Source of the DNA: Carcharhinus longimanus
Lineage: Eukaryota
Direction of reading: 5' to 3'
NCBI GenBank assembly: GCA_030264375.1
Contig: JASCQW010000043.1
Span: 108,441,877 to 108,505,876, forward strand
Length of the DNA stretch: 64,000 bases
Positions 18,001-60,000 of the stretch are shown in pieces. Every line of letters begins with the position of its first letter. Positions within the stretch are counted from its first letter, which is position 1. Made by a program: the position numbers.

Positions 18001-21000
18001 TCCATGTAAATACAAAGGAAGAGTGGTGTTGCACTACGGTTTGTTTACATCTGAAGAAATTCACACATGACTGAACTGGTGTACTGAAGTGTCCCATATT
18101 TGACATTTTCTATACTCATGGCAATTGTTTTTCACTGTGTATTCATCCGTACAAACTGTTCTTTACCGTAACACTGTGTTTAATCCACAATATAACTTAC
18201 TGCAGATAAGGGAATGTTGCTCAAGACAGTTATCTCTGCAAACTGTGTAATTGTTGTCGCTGAACACTACCTTTACGGGAACCATCTCGTTGAGAAAAAT
18301 GATTTCTATTTTTAAATTTTTACATTGTTAACAAAATACTTAAATTTACCTGAAAATTTTATATTATATTTCATAAATGAGGAAAAAATTGACTTTTGAT
18401 GTTGGTTATAAAAATGGTTAAGAGGACAAGTATCATTTCTACTTGTCAGCCTTGACAAAAGTCATCTGGACTTGAAACATCAGCTCTCTTCTCACCTTAT
18501 AGATGCTGCCAGACCTGCTGAGATCTACAAAAAGATTACTTTGAAAAGTCGTACAACAGAGAGGAGGTTACTTGACAGATTATGCCTGTGCCAACTTTTT
18601 GAATGGACTGATTTGTTCGCCTCAATTCTCAATCCCTATTGTAATTTTTCATTGTCAAGCATATATTCAAATACCTTCTAAAAGTGACTTCAAATCTTCC
18701 ATCACTCTTTTTTCGGTCATGCATTCCATATCATAGCAACTAGCTGTGTGAAACAAAATGTTTCCTATTTTCCCTTTAGATTTTTTTGCCTGAATCTGTG
18801 TTCTCTGATAATGAATTCTGCCAGTGGACAGTTTCTCACCACCTTCATCAAACACTTCATTTTTTTTTCAAATCACAACTTTATGATTTGTTGGAGACAG
18901 TGAAAATAATTCCCATTGTGAAGTTTTCTCAGGCAAATGCAGTGGAGAAATGAAATTGGGTAAAAGCAAATTACTGCGGTTCCTGGGATCTGAAATCAAA
19001 AGAGAAAATGCTGAAAAATCTCAGCAGGTCTGGCAGCATCTATAAGGTAAGAAGAGAGCTGACATTTCAAGTCCAGATGACCTTTGTCAAGGCTGACAAG
19101 TAGAAATGATACTTGTCCTCTTAACCATTTTTATAACCAACATCAAAATATCAGTGAAGAAGTCATCTGATAAGCTTCTTTTTAAGTTTATTGCTTTGGG
19201 TGTGGGCTTCACTGGCAAAGTCAGCATCTGCTGCCCGTTGCTGATTATCCTTGAACTGAGTGACTTGCACAGCCATTTCAGAGGCCAGACCAGGTAAGAA
19301 CAGCACATTTCCTTCCCTAAAGGACAATAGTGAATCAGATGGTTTTGTGACAATTGATGGTAGATTTATGGTCATCATCACTGAGAGTCGCTTTATATTT
19401 CATATTTATTTAATTAAATTTACATTTTGCCAATTGCAGTGCTGGGATTTGAACCCATGTCTCCAGAGCATTGGCCTGACATTACCACCATACCACAATC
19501 TCCCCCTAGCATTTTAAAATTATAGCATTGATGCTATAATTTTAAAAGGTGCAATGCAATAAAATATCATATCACAACATAACATTTGATCTATATTGAA
19601 AATTGGTGAAAAATTGAGACAATAAATTGTTTGGCAATAGCTTGCACCACAGAACAAATATCTAAATCTGTATAAATGTATTCAGCAGTTGGTACAATTG
19701 TGTTAAAACAGTGGTTGTTTTTCAGCAAATCTTTATTGGAATTTGTGTTGAGTGCAGTCCTGAAATAAATAACCTGCATGGGAATTAAACCCTGACTTTT
19801 TAAAGGCAGTACAAAATGCATGGGGGCGGTATGGCAGCACAGTGATTAGCACTGCTGCCTCACAGCTCCAGGGACCCGGGTTCAATTATGGCCTCGGGTG
19901 ACTGTGCTGAGTTTACAGGTTCTCCCCGTGTCTGCATGCTTTGCCTCTGGGTGCTCCAGTTTCCTCCCACACTCCAAAGATGTGCGGGTTAGGTTGATTG
20001 ACCATGCTAAATTGCCTCTTAATGTGAGAGGATGAGGAGGTTATAGGACAGGACCTGGGTGGGATTGTTGTCAGTACATGCTCAATGGACCAAATAGCCT
20101 GCTTCTGCACTGTTTGCATCCACCCTAAAATTTTATTTGGAAACTTCTAAGCCAACTTGTATAGACCAACAATTCATTAAGGAAACAATAGTTCCATCAA
20201 ACTCAAAAAAAATCAGTCATCCTTAACTTTGTCACACATCAGATTTGGGTCAATTATGTAAATTCAAAACCCACGTACCTCTGTATTTCAACAACAACAG
20301 CAGGTTACGTTTATGCAGCATCTTTCACATCAAAAAAAGTCCCTCATCGCTTCACAGGAACAGGAAATGTCAACATTTGGTTTATTGACCAAACCACACA
20401 TGATCAAAAGAGTGACCAAAGAAGTTGGGTTTAGAGAAACAAGAGGCAGGGAGGTTGTGGGAGGGCATTCTAAAGTTTTGGGTCTTGCTAACGAAGGCAT
20501 GGTCACGAATGGTGGAGCAAATAAAATCCGGAATGCTCAAGAAGCCAAATTACAAAGTGTGGACAACTCGAAGGTTGTGGGGCTGGAGGAAACTTACAGA
20601 TCTAAGAAGGGGTGAGACGATGATGGAGCCTTGAAAGAAAGGATATGGCATGGTAGCACAATGGTTTAGCACTGCTGTCTCGCAGTTTCAGGGACCGGAG
20701 TTCGATTCCAGCTTGGGTGACTATCTATGCAGAATTTGCATGTTCTTCCTATGTCTGTGTAGGTTTCCCCCGGGTACTCTAGTTTCCTCCACACTCCAAA
20801 AATCATCATCGTAGAATCCCTACAGTACAGAAGGAGGCCATTCGGCCCACCGAGTCTGTACTGACCACAATCCCACCAGGCCTTAATGCCGTAACCTTCA
20901 TTACCCTCCTAATCCCACTGACACTAAGGTCAATTTAACATGATCAATCAATGCAACTTTTGGACTATAGGAGGAAACGGGAGCACCTGGAGAAAATCCA

Positions 21001-57000: not shown

Positions 57001-60000
57001 ATCTTTCCTTAAATATCCTTTCCTCCCTTTCATCTCCAATCCCCATTGTCCTCAGCAGCTCTTTGACCATCACAACTTTTCCAAAATATAAAAATCTTAT
57101 TGCTTCCACTTCCAGGTCAAATAAAATTTAGTAATCTTCGATTGTTTACTAATGAGACTTTGTAAGTTTTAAAACTCCCTTAAACACCTCTTCCAAATTC
57201 AACAGCAAAAGAGCCAAATCCCTATCAACTTCCCAATGGGAATTTTAAAGTCCAACCTATTTAATTCACTCATGGATGTGGGGCCAGAATTTATTGCCCA
57301 TCCTTAATTGCCCTTGAACTGAGTGGCTTGCTAGGTCATTTTCAGAGGGCATTTAAGAGTCACATGCAAGTCAGACCAGGTAGGGATCGCAGATTTCTTT
57401 ACCAAAACGATGTTAATGAGTGTTAATGGCTTTTACAACAATCGATAATCAATCGTTTCATGGTCATCATTAGACTTTTAATGCCAGATTTTTATTGAAT
57501 TTAAATTTCACTATCTGTCATGATGCAATTCACCTTAAAAGAGGCTACCTTAAGAGAGACTATGATGCAATTCGAACCCCAGTCCCTGGGTCTCTGGATT
57601 ACTAGCCCAGTGACAAAACCACTATGCTATCACCTCCTGCAGTTGGCAGTTGTGCTCAATGTTCTGGACTTTAACTGACAATCTTCAAATCAGAAATATG
57701 AAGATAAATATTATTTTAAAAAATACTTTTGGGAATGAGCCGGCATTCTGTAAAGAAGGCTGTGTGTATGTGTACATGATTTAATTAAGATGGGGAAAAT
57801 TAATAGAGACAGCTTGTCTGGGAGAGCTGAGAGATAAAAGGGTAAAGATGCCAGATGTATGCACTTGTAATGAGAAGCTCTGGTGAAGTTCGATTTACAA
57901 TTGTCACTGAGCTAATAATCCAGAGACTGCGGGATTGGGGTTCGAATCGCATCATGACAGATGGTGAAATTTAAATTTTAAATATAATTCTGGAATTAAC
58001 TGTCTAACAATGACCATGAAATCACGGCTGATTTTTGTAAAAGCCGATCCAATTCATTAATGTCCTTTTGCAAAGGAAATCTGCCAAACTTACCTGATCT
58101 GACTTACATGGGATTCTAGATCCATTCTTAAATGCCCTCTGAAATGACCTAGCCCTACATATCAGTACTGATTAGCAGAGATAAAGAGTGAACACATAGA
58201 AAATGTTCAGGTGGATGGACACAAATGATATGGGTGCTTGGTGCAGAATGCTGGTGGGGATGGCAGATTGGGCCATCGGCCACAGCGAGTTGGAATTGGG
58301 AGAGGGGCATTTGGGGAGGGTGCTGGGGTTAACTCAGCTCAAGGACAGGCAAAACCTGCTGTCCCCACTTGTTCTTGCCCACATCCCATGAATGAATTAG
58401 AAAACATCTAAGCTGACAGCTTGGTGCAGCATTGAGGATTATTACAACCCCACACAGGTCATGCTGAAGGGACATTTGGAGTTTTGGGCTTAATGTTACA
58501 CCGGAGGTGGTTGCACAGGGTGGCTGGACAAGAGGCACCCTCTTGTGCTGCCTTGGTTCATCTGATGGTCTGGATATTTGTCAGTTGCCTCCCCCATCAT
58601 GGGAAATAGCCCATCTGCTGTTTGAGGAGATCCTATAGTGACCACCAATTGGGCACTCAGGAGCCTCACTTGACCCACAGGCAAGCAGGTGATCCATGCA
58701 GGGGATGGACATGGCACCACTGTCATGGAATCCAATCTTGTACCCCCTACCTCTGAACATGCCCCAGTAAATCTCCAGCCTTTACGTGCAGTTTTAAGTG
58801 CCATGCTTTAGACAATGCATTGACAAGTTGGAGTAAATTAAGAGAAAGGCAGTAGGGAACACTCAATAATTGAAGACTACATTATTGGTGGAGTTTTGTT
58901 GTTAAAACCAAGATTCTATGATATTGTTTCAAAGAAGGCTCAGGAAAAGGGCAGCTAAAACTCAGGCCAAAATTTTACCGCCAGTTGCAGAACAGAAATC
59001 TCAGTTGACTTTGGGCAGGATTTTATGATCTTGCCCGAATGAGGTTGTAAAATTCTGCGCTAAGTGTCTTGAGCCAATATTGATCCCTTCAACAATGTGG
59101 AAACAATTTTCCTAGTGACTATCACCATGCTGTTTTAGGGAGCTTTGCCTGTAGTACCAGATTCCAGAAGTACTTAATTGGTTATAAAGCACTTGGAGAT
59201 GTCCTGAGTTCATGAAATGTGCTATATAAATGCAGCTTTTCTTAAATACAAAGTTATATATTTTGGAAGCAGAAACAGCAAAGATGCACGAATCACCTTC
59301 CCATGTCTATTGATCACTCACTGAACATTTCCATAATCCCAATCAAACACAAAAGTACGCGAGAGGCATTAAGGTTATTCCAACCTTGTATAGATCTCTG
59401 CTGTAGAGACATTTGGAATTTTATGAGTAGCTATATGACCCCTGTGCATGATTAGAAAATACTTGTACAATGTAGAGAAGAGCAGTAGGGAACATTTGAA
59501 AAACTTCAGCCTGCGTTTTGTGAAGGGCTTTCGTTGTTGCGTCCAAGAAAATTAATTGTAAACATGATCAAGTCGCTGAAAGTCTTATCTGATAATGGTG
59601 TAAAGCAGCGACTTGATTGAAAGGCAGAAACAGGATTAAAAATTATAAACCTAAATAAGAGTGAAGGATATAAACTTCTTCTCTGCAAAATAGAAGAAGC
59701 TTGATGTGGGCTGGCGTTGGACTGGGGTCAGCACAGTAAGAAGTCTCAGGTTAAAATCCAACAGGTTTATTTGGTAGCATCAGCTTTCAATGTGTTGTTC
59801 CTTCATCAGATGAGTGGAGAGTTGACTTCACAAACAGGGCATATGTAGACAAAGCAAACTTGACTTAATTCTCTCTCTCAGAAAGGTGACTAACTGAGAA
59901 CAGAGGTAGACATCATGCGTGCTTTGTCCAAAGGCAGGGCCTTGGTTTATTGCCTGCCGATGCTTCATCCTGAACAATTATCTTAACAATTTTTTTGTCA

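What the first reader, a model, noticed from the sequence alone, without database searches (positions are those of the whole stretch)
18394..58332. Recurrent short copies of nearby DNA (66-190 bp, donor 0.5-2 kb away, mostly inverted)
Seen: five independent pairs in about 40 kb. These are 18394-18524/19018-19148 (inverted), 22534-22599/23207-23272 (direct), 31978-32150/32953-33143 (inverted), 45945-46121/46795-46966 (inverted) and 56130-56319/58151-58332 (inverted). In two cases the copy splits a SINE that resumes on the other side, which gives the direction of the event. The copies carry substitutions and indels, so they are old and not simple assembly duplicates. Established: templated insertions copied from break-proximal DNA are a signature of polymerase-theta end joining and of template-switch repair (SDSA/MMBIR). 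Inference: this density may reflect a prominent germline repair mode, or simply slow erasure, in this shark lineage. It is the best candidate for an undescribed process in the window.
[Added by the scan's program, not by the reader: the finding's places include an assembly gap (unread letters, written N; its length is only estimated) at 28286 to 28385, 28654 to 28663, 41876 to 41885, 44151 to 44250, 53715 to 53814. Whether the letters on both sides are continuous or in frame is not known: test that first.]
Basis: partly seen in the sequence, partly recalled or inferred. Interest (0 to 1): 0.7.

Follow-up and report, generated by a model that had tools for sequence, protein, structure and literature searches.

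The report
Short inverted copies of neighbouring DNA
Several 66-190-base stretches in this window are diverged copies of DNA lying 0.5-2 kb away, most likely scars of break repair that copied nearby sequence backwards, a kind of mutation already described in humans and yeast.

Summary
All five pairs exist at the stated coordinates. No assembly gap lies inside any pair span. Eight of the ten arms match only their partner in the 64 kb. The differences between arms are transition-biased, 47 transitions to 14 transversions, so they reflect real divergence and not assembly error.

- **Pairs 3 and 5:** one arm alone splits an interspersed repeat, which resumes right after it. About 5 nt of target are lost, there is no target-site duplication, and 3 nt of inverted microhomology sit at the junction facing the donor.
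- **Pair 1:** the copy lacks the 3' tail its donor element keeps.

This fits fold-back (snap-back) or template-switch copying of nearby DNA into a break.

- **Pair 4:** it looks like a block inserted into an old LINE, so it is ambiguous.
- **Pair 2:** it is direct and cannot be polarised.

Copy size and donor distance do not fit classical polymerase-theta inserts.

The class is known: human inverted duplications under 1 kb within 5 kb of the source, and yeast fold-back insertions. Density, genome-wide copy number and the shark attribution could not be tested. This is a real feature and a new member of a known kind.

The parts
18394..18524 (+). Pair 1, arm A: inferred inserted copy (131 nt), inverted relative to the donor
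   Evidence: 127/131 identical to the reverse complement of 19018-19148. Homology to the repeat family at 1881-1953 stops at 18524, and the family's 57-nt 3' tail is absent next to it.
18961..19148 (-). Pair 1, donor: arm B (19018-19148) embedded in a repeat element whose 3' tail continues at 18961-19017
   Evidence: 18961-19089 matches 2010-1881 at 78% over 130 nt, so arm B is in native repeat context at its inner edge.
22534..22599 (+). Pair 2, copy A (66 nt, direct)
   Evidence: 61/66 identical to 23207-23272, and all 5 differences are transitions. No homology lies beyond the 66 nt. Polarity is unknown.
23207..23272 (+). Pair 2, copy B (66 nt, direct)
   Evidence: Same alignment as copy A. 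There is a 607-nt spacer and no other copy in the window.
31760..31977 (+). Pair 3 acceptor, left part of an interspersed (SINE-like) repeat
   Evidence: Aligns to the intact copy 21366-21644 (reverse complement) up to 31977. The family has 9-11 loci in the window.
31978..32151 (+). Pair 3 insert (174 nt): inverted copy of 32953-33143
   Evidence: 144/172 identical with 2 gap events, one of 19 nt. It interrupts the repeat, and no TSD is present.
32152..32221 (+). Pair 3 acceptor, right part of the same repeat. Its first 3 nt (32152-32154) pair in register with the donor flank 32950-32948.
   Evidence: The repeat resumes at 32152. 5 nt of the intact copy are unaccounted for. The microhomology is k=3 in exact register. 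The intact copy carries a 5-nt match to the donor flank at this point (read).
32953..33143 (-). Pair 3 donor (191 nt), 801 nt downstream of the insert
45945..46121 (+). Pair 4, arm A (177 nt)
   Evidence: 162/172 identical plus a 5-nt gap to the reverse complement of 46795-46966. No homology to the LINE.
46795..46966 (-). Pair 4, arm B (172 nt). Its outer edge coincides with the point where old LINE ORF2 homology resumes.
   Evidence: tblastn: LINE copy 1 12872-13324 aligns to 46965-47360, E 5.8e-21. On the left, LINE homology reaches only 45868-45918.
56130..56319 (+). Pair 5 donor (190 nt), 1.83 kb upstream of the insert
57890..58153 (+). Pair 5 acceptor, left part of a second interspersed repeat ('SINE-X'). 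Its last 3 nt (58151-58153) are also the first 3 nt of the inverted homology.
   Evidence: Aligns to the intact copy 57410-57330 up to 58153. Microhomology is k=3 in exact register with 56317-56319.
58154..58331 (-). Pair 5 insert (178 nt): inverted copy of 56130-56319
   Evidence: 158/172 identical with 4 gap events. It interrupts SINE-X, and no TSD is present.
58332..58400 (+). Pair 5 acceptor, right part of SINE-X
   Evidence: Resumes at 58332, which aligns to 57324 of the intact copy. The 5 nt at 57329-57325 are missing at the site. One nt (58332) is shared with the donor homology.

Best explanation
Most of these pairs are scars of germline break repair, or a replication template switch, that copied a nearby stretch of the same chromosome in reverse orientation into the break.

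Proposed steps, all inferred from the anatomy:
1. A double-strand break occurs, and one end is resected for 0.5-2 kb.
2. The 3' tail folds back on its own strand and pairs through 3-5 nt of inverted microhomology.
3. A polymerase extends it for about 130-190 nt.
4. The nascent strand is displaced and joined to the other break end with 0-1 nt of homology and loss of a few target bases.

The product is: donor, then spacer (the former loop), then inverted copy, then the other end. Afterwards both copies drift neutrally.

Shown directly for pairs 3 and 5: a single arm is the insert, the donor is kept, there is no target duplication, about 5 nt of target are lost, and microhomology lies at the donor-facing junction. 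Shown partly for pair 1: the copy is a 3'-truncated piece of a repeat.

Pair 2 (direct) needs a different template choice, such as the sister chromatid or the other end. Pair 4 may be a different kind of event.
For: 1. **The pairs are local and unique.** 8 of 10 arms match only their partner in 64 kb. 0 of 20 resampled windows give any match.
2. **Polarity.**
   - In pair 3 the repeat is continuous to 31977 and resumes at 32152.
   - In pair 5 the repeat is continuous to 58153 and resumes at 58332.
   - A transposon carrying both arms would instead have pushed the second half of the repeat beyond the far arm.
3. **No transposition hallmarks.** 0 of 5 whole units and 4 of 10 single arms show a flanking direct repeat (>=4 nt exact, or >=7 nt with one mismatch) within +-3 nt. 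The rate for random placements is 184 of 1000. I saw no poly-A tail or terminal inverted repeat on the inserts (read).
4. **Target loss.** 5 nt of the intact repeat are unaccounted for at each of the two polarised sites.
5. **Microhomology.** The inverted homology runs 3 nt into the acceptor's own sequence at the donor-facing junction in both polarised events. Random sites reach 3 nt in 2.0% of 20000 trials in exact register, and in 13% with +-1 nt slop. The far junction shares 0-1 nt.
6. **Pair 1.** The copy stops at 18524, although the family continues for 57 nt beside the donor. Retrotransposed copies normally keep their 3' end (established knowledge).
7. **Real divergence over a range of ages.** K2P distances are 0.03-0.19, with 47 transitions to 14 transversions.
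8. **Precedent.**
   - Yeast break repair makes inverted inserts of 10 to over 150 bp by hairpin formation, synthesis, displacement and ligation to the other end. The far junction there has 0-5 bp of homology (PMC11724301, section 15).
   - Human fold-back inverted duplications have 766-70,466-bp spacers and 2-8 bp of microhomology at the spacer/inversion junction (PMC3907307, passages).
Against: - Only 2 of 5 pairs are polarised by a split repeat, and pair 1 only by an argument from a missing tail.
- Pair 2 is direct, which fold-back cannot make.
- Pair 4: arms plus spacer together interrupt an old LINE, and LINE homology resumes at the outer edge of arm B. This is what a mobile element with terminal inverted repeats, or a complex multi-switch event, would give. 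A TA/TA target duplication cannot be excluded there.
- The microhomologies are short.
  - In pair 3 the 3 nt are separated from the solid homology by two transition mismatches.
  - The acceptor reference for pair 3 is a single diverged repeat copy.
- The copies (131-190 nt) and loops (0.5-1.8 kb) are larger than most yeast events (about 5-34 bp, 41-nt loop).
- Four inverted of five is not a significant bias (one-sided binomial 6/32, my arithmetic).
- Genome-wide copy number of the arms and orthologous empty sites were not available. Low-copy repeat families cannot be formally excluded.
- Sequence alone cannot separate break-induced fold-back from a replication-fork strand switch.
Confidence: 0.55

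Rival explanations
1. Replication-based template switching (the four-point model, or FoSTeS/MMBIR at short range). A nascent strand at a stalled fork switches to the opposite strand 0.5-2 kb away, copies 66-190 nt, and returns. No double-strand break or end joining is needed.
For: - It predicts the same product: a reverse-complement copy of a nearby fragment with microhomology at the switch points.
- The human inverted duplications under 1 kbp within 5 kbp were attributed to possible replication errors (PMC4617611, passages).
- It can also give direct copies such as pair 2 by switching to a sister template.
Against: - The described short-range events are far shorter. High-confidence calls were filtered at >=14 bp, and the model was explicitly not applied to long-range switches.
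- The 5-nt target loss, together with microhomology concentrated at the donor-facing junction (3 nt against 0-1 nt), fits a primed end plus end joining slightly better. The sample is only two events.
Confidence: 0.25
2. The inverted pairs are the terminal inverted repeats of non-autonomous DNA transposons or fold-back elements, each inserted as one unit.
For: - Four pairs have 131-190-nt inverted arms 0.5-1.8 kb apart, a geometry seen in long-TIR elements (recalled knowledge).
- For pair 4 the whole unit interrupts an old LINE, and LINE homology resumes at the outer edge of arm B.
- The pair 4 inverted repeat ends in TA on both sides, so a TA duplication is possible.
Against: - In pairs 3 and 5 the interrupted repeat resumes immediately after a single arm, not after the far arm.
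- 0 of 5 units have a flanking direct repeat of >=4 nt within +-3 nt.
- No arm has another copy in 64 kb, except that pair 1 partly overlaps a repeat family.
- In pair 1 the family-tail ends face inward. This is the opposite topology to the family's own hairpin copy at 1762-1977.
- None of the 10 ORFs scanned showed a transposase domain. These ORFs came from across the window and did not include the pair interiors.
Confidence: 0.07
3. Each arm is an independent insertion of a low-copy interspersed repeat (SINE, MITE or LINE 3' fragment) that happened to land near a sister copy, for example by local hopping.
For: - The inserts in pairs 3 and 5 sit inside other repeats, as nested transposon insertions often do.
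- Pair 1 overlaps a recognisable repeat family.
- Copy number outside the window is unknown.
Against: - No target duplications above the random rate (4 of 15 tests against 184 of 1000 random placements).
- I saw no poly-A tail or terminal repeats on the inserts.
- The pair 1 copy lacks the family's 3' tail.
- All five two-copy sets lie within 2.2 kb, although the window is 64 kb. That is about 7% each by chance (my arithmetic).
- Within-pair identity (84-97%) exceeds that of the far-apart two-copy matches in the window (65-81%).
Confidence: 0.08
4. Polymerase-theta-mediated end joining specifically, produced the copies.
For: - Templated inserts, >=1 nt of junction homology and small deletions are the TMEJ signature, and they are seen in natural C. 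elegans isolates (PMC4032859, passages).
- The two polarised events here have microhomology and 5-nt target loss.
Against: - TMEJ inserts are described as short stretches templated close to the break. Here the tracts are 66-190 nt and the donors lie 0.5-1.8 kb away.
- In yeast, which lacks this polymerase (recalled), equivalent fold-back insertions need polymerase delta plus NHEJ or alt-EJ (abstract).
- Sequence cannot identify the polymerase.
Confidence: 0.15
5. Assembly artefact: local misassembly or chimeric long reads created spurious inverted duplicates.
For: - The scaffold has 7 N gaps.
- A sixth, direct pair (26169-26263 / 28392-28488) begins 7 nt after a gap and may be unreliable.
Against: - None of the five pairs spans or touches a gap.
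- The arms differ by 3-16% of aligned positions, with a 47:14 transition:transversion ratio and indels. Duplicated reads would not produce this pattern.
- The arms are bounded precisely inside older repeats.
Confidence: 0.03

Closest known systems
Human small inverted duplications ('Inverted Dup' class of the 1000 Genomes phase 3 structural-variant map; PMC4617611, passages read)
   Same: [quoted passage not shown] The authors state it is not typically associated with retrotransposition and suggest a common, possibly replication-based mechanism. Four of the five pairs here fit this definition.
   Different: The human events are polymorphisms defined against an empty allele. Here the events are fixed in one assembly, 3-16% diverged, and polarity had to be inferred from split repeats. 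I could not see the human junction details, because they are in supplements that were closed.
Local fold-back inversions at an induced break in yeast (PMC11724301; abstract and section 15 read)
   Same: A resected end forms a hairpin on inverted microhomology. Synthesis follows, the nascent strand is displaced, and it is ligated to the other end. The inserts are inverted copies of break-proximal DNA up to over 150 bp, and the far junction has 0-5 bp of homology. The two polarised events here have the same layout.
   Different: Most yeast inserts are about 5-34 bp and the loop is 41 nt. Here the tracts are 131-190 nt and the loops 0.5-1.8 kb. The yeast events are somatic and induced. These are germline and ancient.
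Large fold-back inverted duplications in human patients (PMC3907307; abstract and passages read)
   Same: A single-copy spacer between the direct and inverted copies corresponds to the fold-back loop (766-70,466 bp, median 3,428 bp). 2-8 bp of inverted microhomology lies at the spacer/inversion junction. The spacers here (493-1,831 nt) and the 3-nt microhomologies are in or near that range.
   Different: Those events copy megabases to the chromosome end through a dicentric chromosome and carry terminal deletions. Here synthesis stopped after under 200 nt and the end rejoined its partner.
Polymerase-theta templated insertions (PMC4032859; passages read)
   Same: A copy of flanking DNA inserted at a repaired break, with minimal junction homology and a small deletion. 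They are visible in evolving genomes.
   Different: The described inserts are short and their templates lie close to the break. Here the copies are 66-190 nt and lie 0.5-1.8 kb away.
Short-range template-switch mutations, four-point model (PMC5453318; passages and section 6 read)
   Same: A reverse-complement copy of a nearby fragment that creates inverted repeats. 794 high-confidence events were found between human and chimp.
   Different: Those events are tens of bases long and often replace sequence. The model was not applied to longer-range switches.

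Membership tests
Fold-back / snap-back templated inverted insertion | Insert is a reverse-complement copy of same-chromosome DNA near the break, and the donor is retained | tested here: met
   4 of 5 pairs are inverted, with both copies present 493-1,831 nt apart.
Fold-back / snap-back templated inverted insertion | The copy alone interrupts pre-existing sequence, with no target-site duplication and often a small target deletion | tested here: met
   Met for pairs 3 and 5: the repeat resumes right after one arm and 5 nt are missing at each site, with no TSD. Supported indirectly for pair 1. Not determinable for pair 2. Pair 4 contradicts it.
Fold-back / snap-back templated inverted insertion | Inverted microhomology at the spacer/insert (donor-facing) junction | tested here: inconclusive
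   3 nt in exact register in 2 of 2 polarised events. The chance rate is 2.0% per site, or 13% with +-1 nt slop. The sample is two events and the junctions are blurred by 8-16% mismatch between the arms.
Fold-back / snap-back templated inverted insertion | An empty (pre-insertion) allele or orthologous site exists | not testable with these tools
   No eukaryotic genome or read collection was available.
[quoted passage not shown] | Size, distance and orientation criteria as stated in PMC4617611 | tested here: met
   Pairs 1, 3, 4 and 5: copies of 131-190 nt at distances of 493-1,831 nt, inverted. No poly-A tail or TSD.
Polymerase-theta (TMEJ) templated insertion | Short insert templated from DNA close to the break | tested here: not met
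   The copies are 66-190 nt and the donors lie 493-1,831 nt away. [quoted passage not shown]
Polymerase-theta (TMEJ) templated insertion | Dependence on the polymerase | not testable with these tools
   This requires genetics.
DNA transposon / MITE with terminal inverted repeats | Target-site duplication flanking the whole unit | tested here: not met
   0 of 5 units have >=4 nt exact (or >=7 nt with one mismatch) within +-3 nt. A 2-nt TA duplication at pair 4 cannot be excluded.
DNA transposon / MITE with terminal inverted repeats | The unit inserted as one block, so the interrupted host sequence resumes beyond the far arm | tested here: not met
   Not met for pairs 3 and 5, where the host repeat resumes after the near arm. 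Compatible for pair 4. Untestable for pairs 1 and 2.
DNA transposon / MITE with terminal inverted repeats | Multiple genomic copies sharing both ends | not testable with these tools
   Only the 64-kb window could be searched, and it holds no further copies.
Retrotransposed SINE/LINE fragment | Intact 3' end or tail of the family, plus a target-site duplication | tested here: not met
   The pair 1 copy lacks the family's 57-nt 3' tail. The inserts of pairs 3 and 5 have no A-rich tail and no TSD.

The most novel reading that the evidence does not exclude
This lineage may carry, at unusually high density, a distinct intermediate class of fold-back templated insertion. Its features would be synthesis tracts of roughly 130-190 nt (about one nucleosome or Okazaki-fragment length), primed across kilobase-sized loops and accumulated over a long time span.

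Such a class would sit between the short snap-back inserts of end joining and the megabase fold-back duplications. It would point to a lineage-specific balance of long resection, weak hairpin suppression and limited polymerase processivity in the germline.

A crude scaling of my own uses the 794 high-confidence human-chimp events, an unmasked alignment of about 1.4 Gb and about 1.2% divergence (both figures recalled). It gives roughly 0.4 events per 40 kb at K=0.19, against 4-5 observed here. The two detection schemes and size classes are not comparable.
Probability: 0.12. Interest if true: 0.65.

Novelty: new member of a known kind. Interest (0 to 1): 0.35.

Why it matters
If the reading is right, these pairs are fossil repair scars whose donor, loop length, tract length and junctions can still be read after up to about 19% divergence. 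Old interspersed repeats serve as built-in markers of the pre-insertion sequence.

That makes slowly evolving, repeat-rich genomes a useful archive for measuring how often germline breaks are mended by fold-back or template-switch copying, and with what tract and loop lengths. In mammals this can be seen only in young polymorphisms.

The events also create long inverted repeats de novo. Such repeats are raw material for hairpin RNAs and are hotspots for later rearrangement.

For annotation, such pairs should not be mistaken for transposons with terminal inverted repeats. The mechanism itself is not new.

Tried and rejected
- **Rfam and tRNA scans of the window:** 0 matches each. The 'SINE' label for the two split repeats therefore rests on copy number and length in the window and on tRNA-like motifs I recognised by eye (recalled).
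- **Pfam on 10 of the 67 stop-to-stop ORFs of >=90 aa:** one reverse-transcriptase hit (3-719, minus strand), one sub-threshold zinc-finger hit, and no transposase. The ORFs inside the pair spans were not among the ten.
- **Locating the exact LINE/insert boundaries around pair 4:**
  - A cheap-gap alignment gave noise.
  - Segment-wise Smith-Waterman, tblastn and shuffles placed the right boundary at 46965-46970. The left boundary could only be narrowed to 45897-45918.
  - A 42-nt flanking similarity (21/42 identical; 0 of 5000 random placements reach this) was found only after I had looked at the sequence. It is too diverged to be a duplication of the same age as the arms. It stays unexplained.
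- **Similarity between arms of different pairs,** suspected by eye for pairs 3 and 5: no cross-hits at E<=0.1, so rejected.
- **A continuum of smaller local copies:** exact matches of >=14 nt within 3 kb outside the known pairs were only repeat-family matches, two small palindromes and tandem repeats.
- **Literature on sharks or elasmobranchs:** three searches combining shark or elasmobranch with templated insertion, inverted repeats or inverted duplication returned 4, 4 and 1 papers, none on this subject (listings only).
- **Not done because unavailable or closed:**
  - any search of the source genome or of related species
  - The search for homologous proteins
  - The search of protein representatives
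  - the viral and metagenome collections
  - paper supplements. Junction tables in the supplements of PMC4617611 and PMC3907307 may bear on the size and microhomology comparisons.
- structure prediction, complex prediction and the one bacterial genome-contig scan.
- **Other points:**
  - The sequence does not look human to me.
  - No gene model was built, so no joined exon step arose.
  - The N gaps were left as they are.

Full report
**1. Observation**

The window is 64,000 nt, 40.7% G+C, with seven N runs.

- **Presence.** The repeat finder on 17000-60000 lists them as I1, D3, I2, I4+I5 and I9+I10. A whole-window self-blastn (79 non-self HSP pairs) and local alignments with 80-nt flanks give the same boundaries.
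- **Alignments.**

| Pair | Identical / aligned | Gap events | K2P |
|---|---|---|---|
| 1 | 127/131 | 0 | 0.032 |
| 2 | 61/66 | 0 | 0.082 |
| 3 | 144/172 | 2 (one of 19 nt) | 0.189 |
| 4 | 162/172 | 1 (5 nt) | 0.061 |
| 5 | 158/172 | 4 | 0.087 |

- **Gaps.** No N run lies inside a pair span, and each pair sits in one gap-free contig. The gap caveat attached to the finding therefore affects only the total span, not any pair.
- **Chance.** Twenty Markov-1 resamples of the window gave no self-matches at all, against 79 in the real sequence.
- **Uniqueness.** Eight of ten arms match only themselves and their partner in the window at E<=0.1. The two arms of pair 1 also match a related repeat at 1785-1953 at 73-78%.
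- **Proximity (my arithmetic).** Two copies of a dispersed family dropped at random in 64 kb would lie within 2.2 kb only about 7% of the time. Far-apart two-copy matches in the window are 65-81% identical. The five pairs are 82-97% by local alignment and 84-97% by global alignment. So each pair is related by a local event.
- **Real divergence.** The differences are 47 transitions to 14 transversions. That is an evolutionary spectrum, not an error spectrum.

**2. Which copy is the insert**

*Pair 3.* A member of the commonest repeat family in the window (9-11 loci) runs from 31760 to 31977 and resumes at 32152. The intact relative at 21366-21644 is continuous across this point, and 5 of its bases are unaccounted for in the split copy. 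The 174 nt in between are the inverted copy of 32953-33143, which lies 801 nt downstream.

*Pair 5.* A second repeat family ('SINE-X') has other copies at 57240-57650, 62780-63110 and 19180-19480.
- It runs from about 57890 to 58153 and resumes at 58332.
- 5 bases of the closest intact copy are missing at the site.
- The 178 nt in between are the inverted copy of 56130-56319, which lies 1.83 kb upstream.

In both cases the interrupted repeat resumes right after one arm. The two arms therefore did not arrive together as the ends of a transposon.

*Pair 1.*
- Arm B is embedded in a repeat element whose 3' tail continues at 18961-19017. It matches 2010-1881 at 78% over 130 nt.
- Arm A's homology to that family stops at 18524, with no tail beside it.
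- Retrotransposed copies keep their 3' ends, so arm A is best read as a partial DNA-level copy of its neighbour.

*Pair 2.* This is a 66-nt direct copy. There is no further homology around it and nothing shows which copy is older.

**3. Junction anatomy**

- **No target-site duplications.**
  - None of the five whole units shows a flanking direct repeat (>=4 nt exact, or >=7 nt with one mismatch, within +-3 nt).
  - Four of the ten single arms show one. Random placements do so in 184 of 1000 trials.
- **No tails.** I saw no A-rich tail or terminal inverted repeat on the two polarised inserts.
- **Microhomology facing the donor.**
  - In both polarised events the inverted homology runs 3 nt into the acceptor's own sequence at the junction that faces the donor: 58151-58153 with 56317-56319, and 32152-32154 with 32950-32948.
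  - The chance rate is 2.0% per site in exact register, and 13% if +-1 nt of slop is allowed.
  - In pair 3 the 3 nt are separated from the solid homology by two transition mismatches.
  - The intact repeat copy carries a 5-nt match to the donor flank at that point. The original microhomology may therefore have been 3-5 nt.
- **Far junction.** It shares 1 nt in pair 5 and 0-1 nt in pair 3.

**4. Mechanism**

The layout is: donor, single-copy spacer, inverted copy, other break end. Microhomology sits at the spacer/copy junction, a few target bases are lost, and there is no duplication. This is what fold-back (snap-back) priming predicts:
1. One end is resected.
2. Its 3' tail pairs with its own strand further in.
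3. It is extended.
4. The new strand is displaced and joined to the other end.

These steps are inferred. Only the product is observed.

Precedents in the literature:
- The same sequence of steps was proposed from experiments at an induced break in yeast. There the inverted inserts reach 10 to over 150 bp, and the far junction has 0-5 bp of homology. The process needs polymerase delta plus NHEJ or alt-EJ (PMC11724301, abstract and section 15).
- Human fold-back inverted duplications show a spacer of 766-70,466 bp that represents the loop. They carry 2-8 bp of inverted microhomology at the spacer/inversion junction (PMC3907307, abstract and passages).

The spacers here (493, 801 and 1,831 nt for pairs 1, 3 and 5) are in or near that range.

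A replication-fork strand switch under the four-point model (PMC5453318) gives the same product. Sequence alone cannot exclude it.

Assigning the events to polymerase theta is not justified. The TMEJ signature is short inserts templated close to the break (PMC4032859, passages). These copies are 66-190 nt and lie 0.5-1.8 kb away.

**5. The pairs that do not fit**

*Pair 4.* It lies inside an old LINE ORF2 fragment (45337-47385) that has a second copy at 12341-13347.
- At protein level, LINE homology resumes at 46965, the outer edge of arm B (E 5.8e-21 over 151 residues).
- On the left, LINE homology reaches only 45868-45918 (6 of 1000 shuffles score as high).
- Arms and spacer show no LINE homology (z -1.0, -0.5 and -1.2).

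So the arms plus spacer (1,022 nt), together with 27-47 further nt, behave as one inserted block. This is what a mobile element with terminal inverted repeats would give, and a TA/TA duplication is possible. A multi-switch event is an alternative.

The 42 nt on each side of the unit are 21/42 identical in duplication register (0 of 5000 random placements reach this). I chose that length after looking. The similarity is also far lower than the arms' 94%, so it remains unexplained.

*Pair 2.* It is direct and needs a different template choice. Four inverted of five is not a significant orientation bias (6/32, my arithmetic).

**6. Comparison with what is known**

The class is already described.
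- In the 1000 Genomes structural-variant map, 54% of 229 verified inversion calls were inverted duplications. [quoted passage not shown] They were not typically associated with retrotransposition and were attributed to a common, possibly replicative mechanism (PMC4617611, passages). Pairs 1, 3, 4 and 5 meet that definition.
- I found nothing on this in sharks or elasmobranchs in the held library. Three searches returned 4, 4 and 1 unrelated papers (listings only).

**7. What could not be tested**

No eukaryotic genome, read set or repeat library was available. The following remain open:
- the genome-wide copy number of the arms
- empty orthologous sites
- long-read support
- the density relative to other vertebrates
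- the attribution to a shark

The repeat motifs look like cartilaginous-fish repeats to me, but that is recollection, not a result.

A crude scaling of my own suggests the window is richer than the human-chimp short-event rate by about an order of magnitude. It uses the 794 high-confidence human-chimp events, an unmasked alignment of about 1.4 Gb and about 1.2% divergence (both figures recalled). The two detection schemes and size classes are not comparable, so I draw no conclusion from it.

**8. Verdict**

It is left open for pair 2 and doubtful for pair 4.
- The specific enzyme and the claim of an undescribed process are not supported.

This is a new instance, in a new lineage and readable at unusual age, of a known mutation class.

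Noticed in passing
window 681-808 and 907-1025: A further local inverted pair, about 85% identical over roughly 120-128 nt with a 98-nt spacer. The arms look like tRNA-derived SINE heads facing each other (by eye). Arm A abuts a 5'-truncated LINE reverse-transcriptase fragment at 3-719 on the minus strand (Pfam RVT_1, E 7e-20). There are no other copies in the window.
   Followed up: partly
window 1762-2010: Hairpin copy of the same repeat family as the pair 1 donor. The arms 1762-1869 and 1870-1977 are 78% complementary, with a loop of about 33 nt. Only the right arm continues into the family's 3' tail (1978-2010). This may be a zero-distance version of the same fold-back copying, or snap-back during retrotransposition.
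   Followed up: partly
window 26169-26263 and 28392-28488: Direct pair, 83/95 identical, with a 2.1-kb spacer and no other copies in the window. The second copy begins 7 nt after the N gap at 28286-28385, so its true extent and reliability are unknown. The gap was left untouched.
   Followed up: partly
window 6263-6574 and 9323-9641: Direct pair of about 320 nt, 66% identical, with a 2.7-kb spacer and no other copies in the window. It could be the two long terminal repeats of an old retroelement or an old local duplication.
   Followed up: no
window 57262-57640 (minus strand) and 57890-58400 (plus strand): Two copies of the SINE-X family lie head to head, about 280 nt apart, inside the loop of pair 5. 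The self-alignment ends exactly at 57330/58153, because the right copy is cut there by the pair 5 insert.
   Followed up: partly
window 12341-13347 and 45337-47385: Two diverged fragments of the same LINE ORF2, about 38% identical at protein level over 151 residues, with stop codons in both. The second fragment carries the pair 4 block as an interruption of about 1.05-1.08 kb.
   Followed up: yes
window 44251-44327; 43360-43471; 19512-19547: A 33-nt-period tandem repeat starts at the first base after the N gap that ends at 44250. Short tandem repeats lie at 43360-43471. A 36-nt near-perfect palindrome lies at 19512-19547.
   Followed up: no
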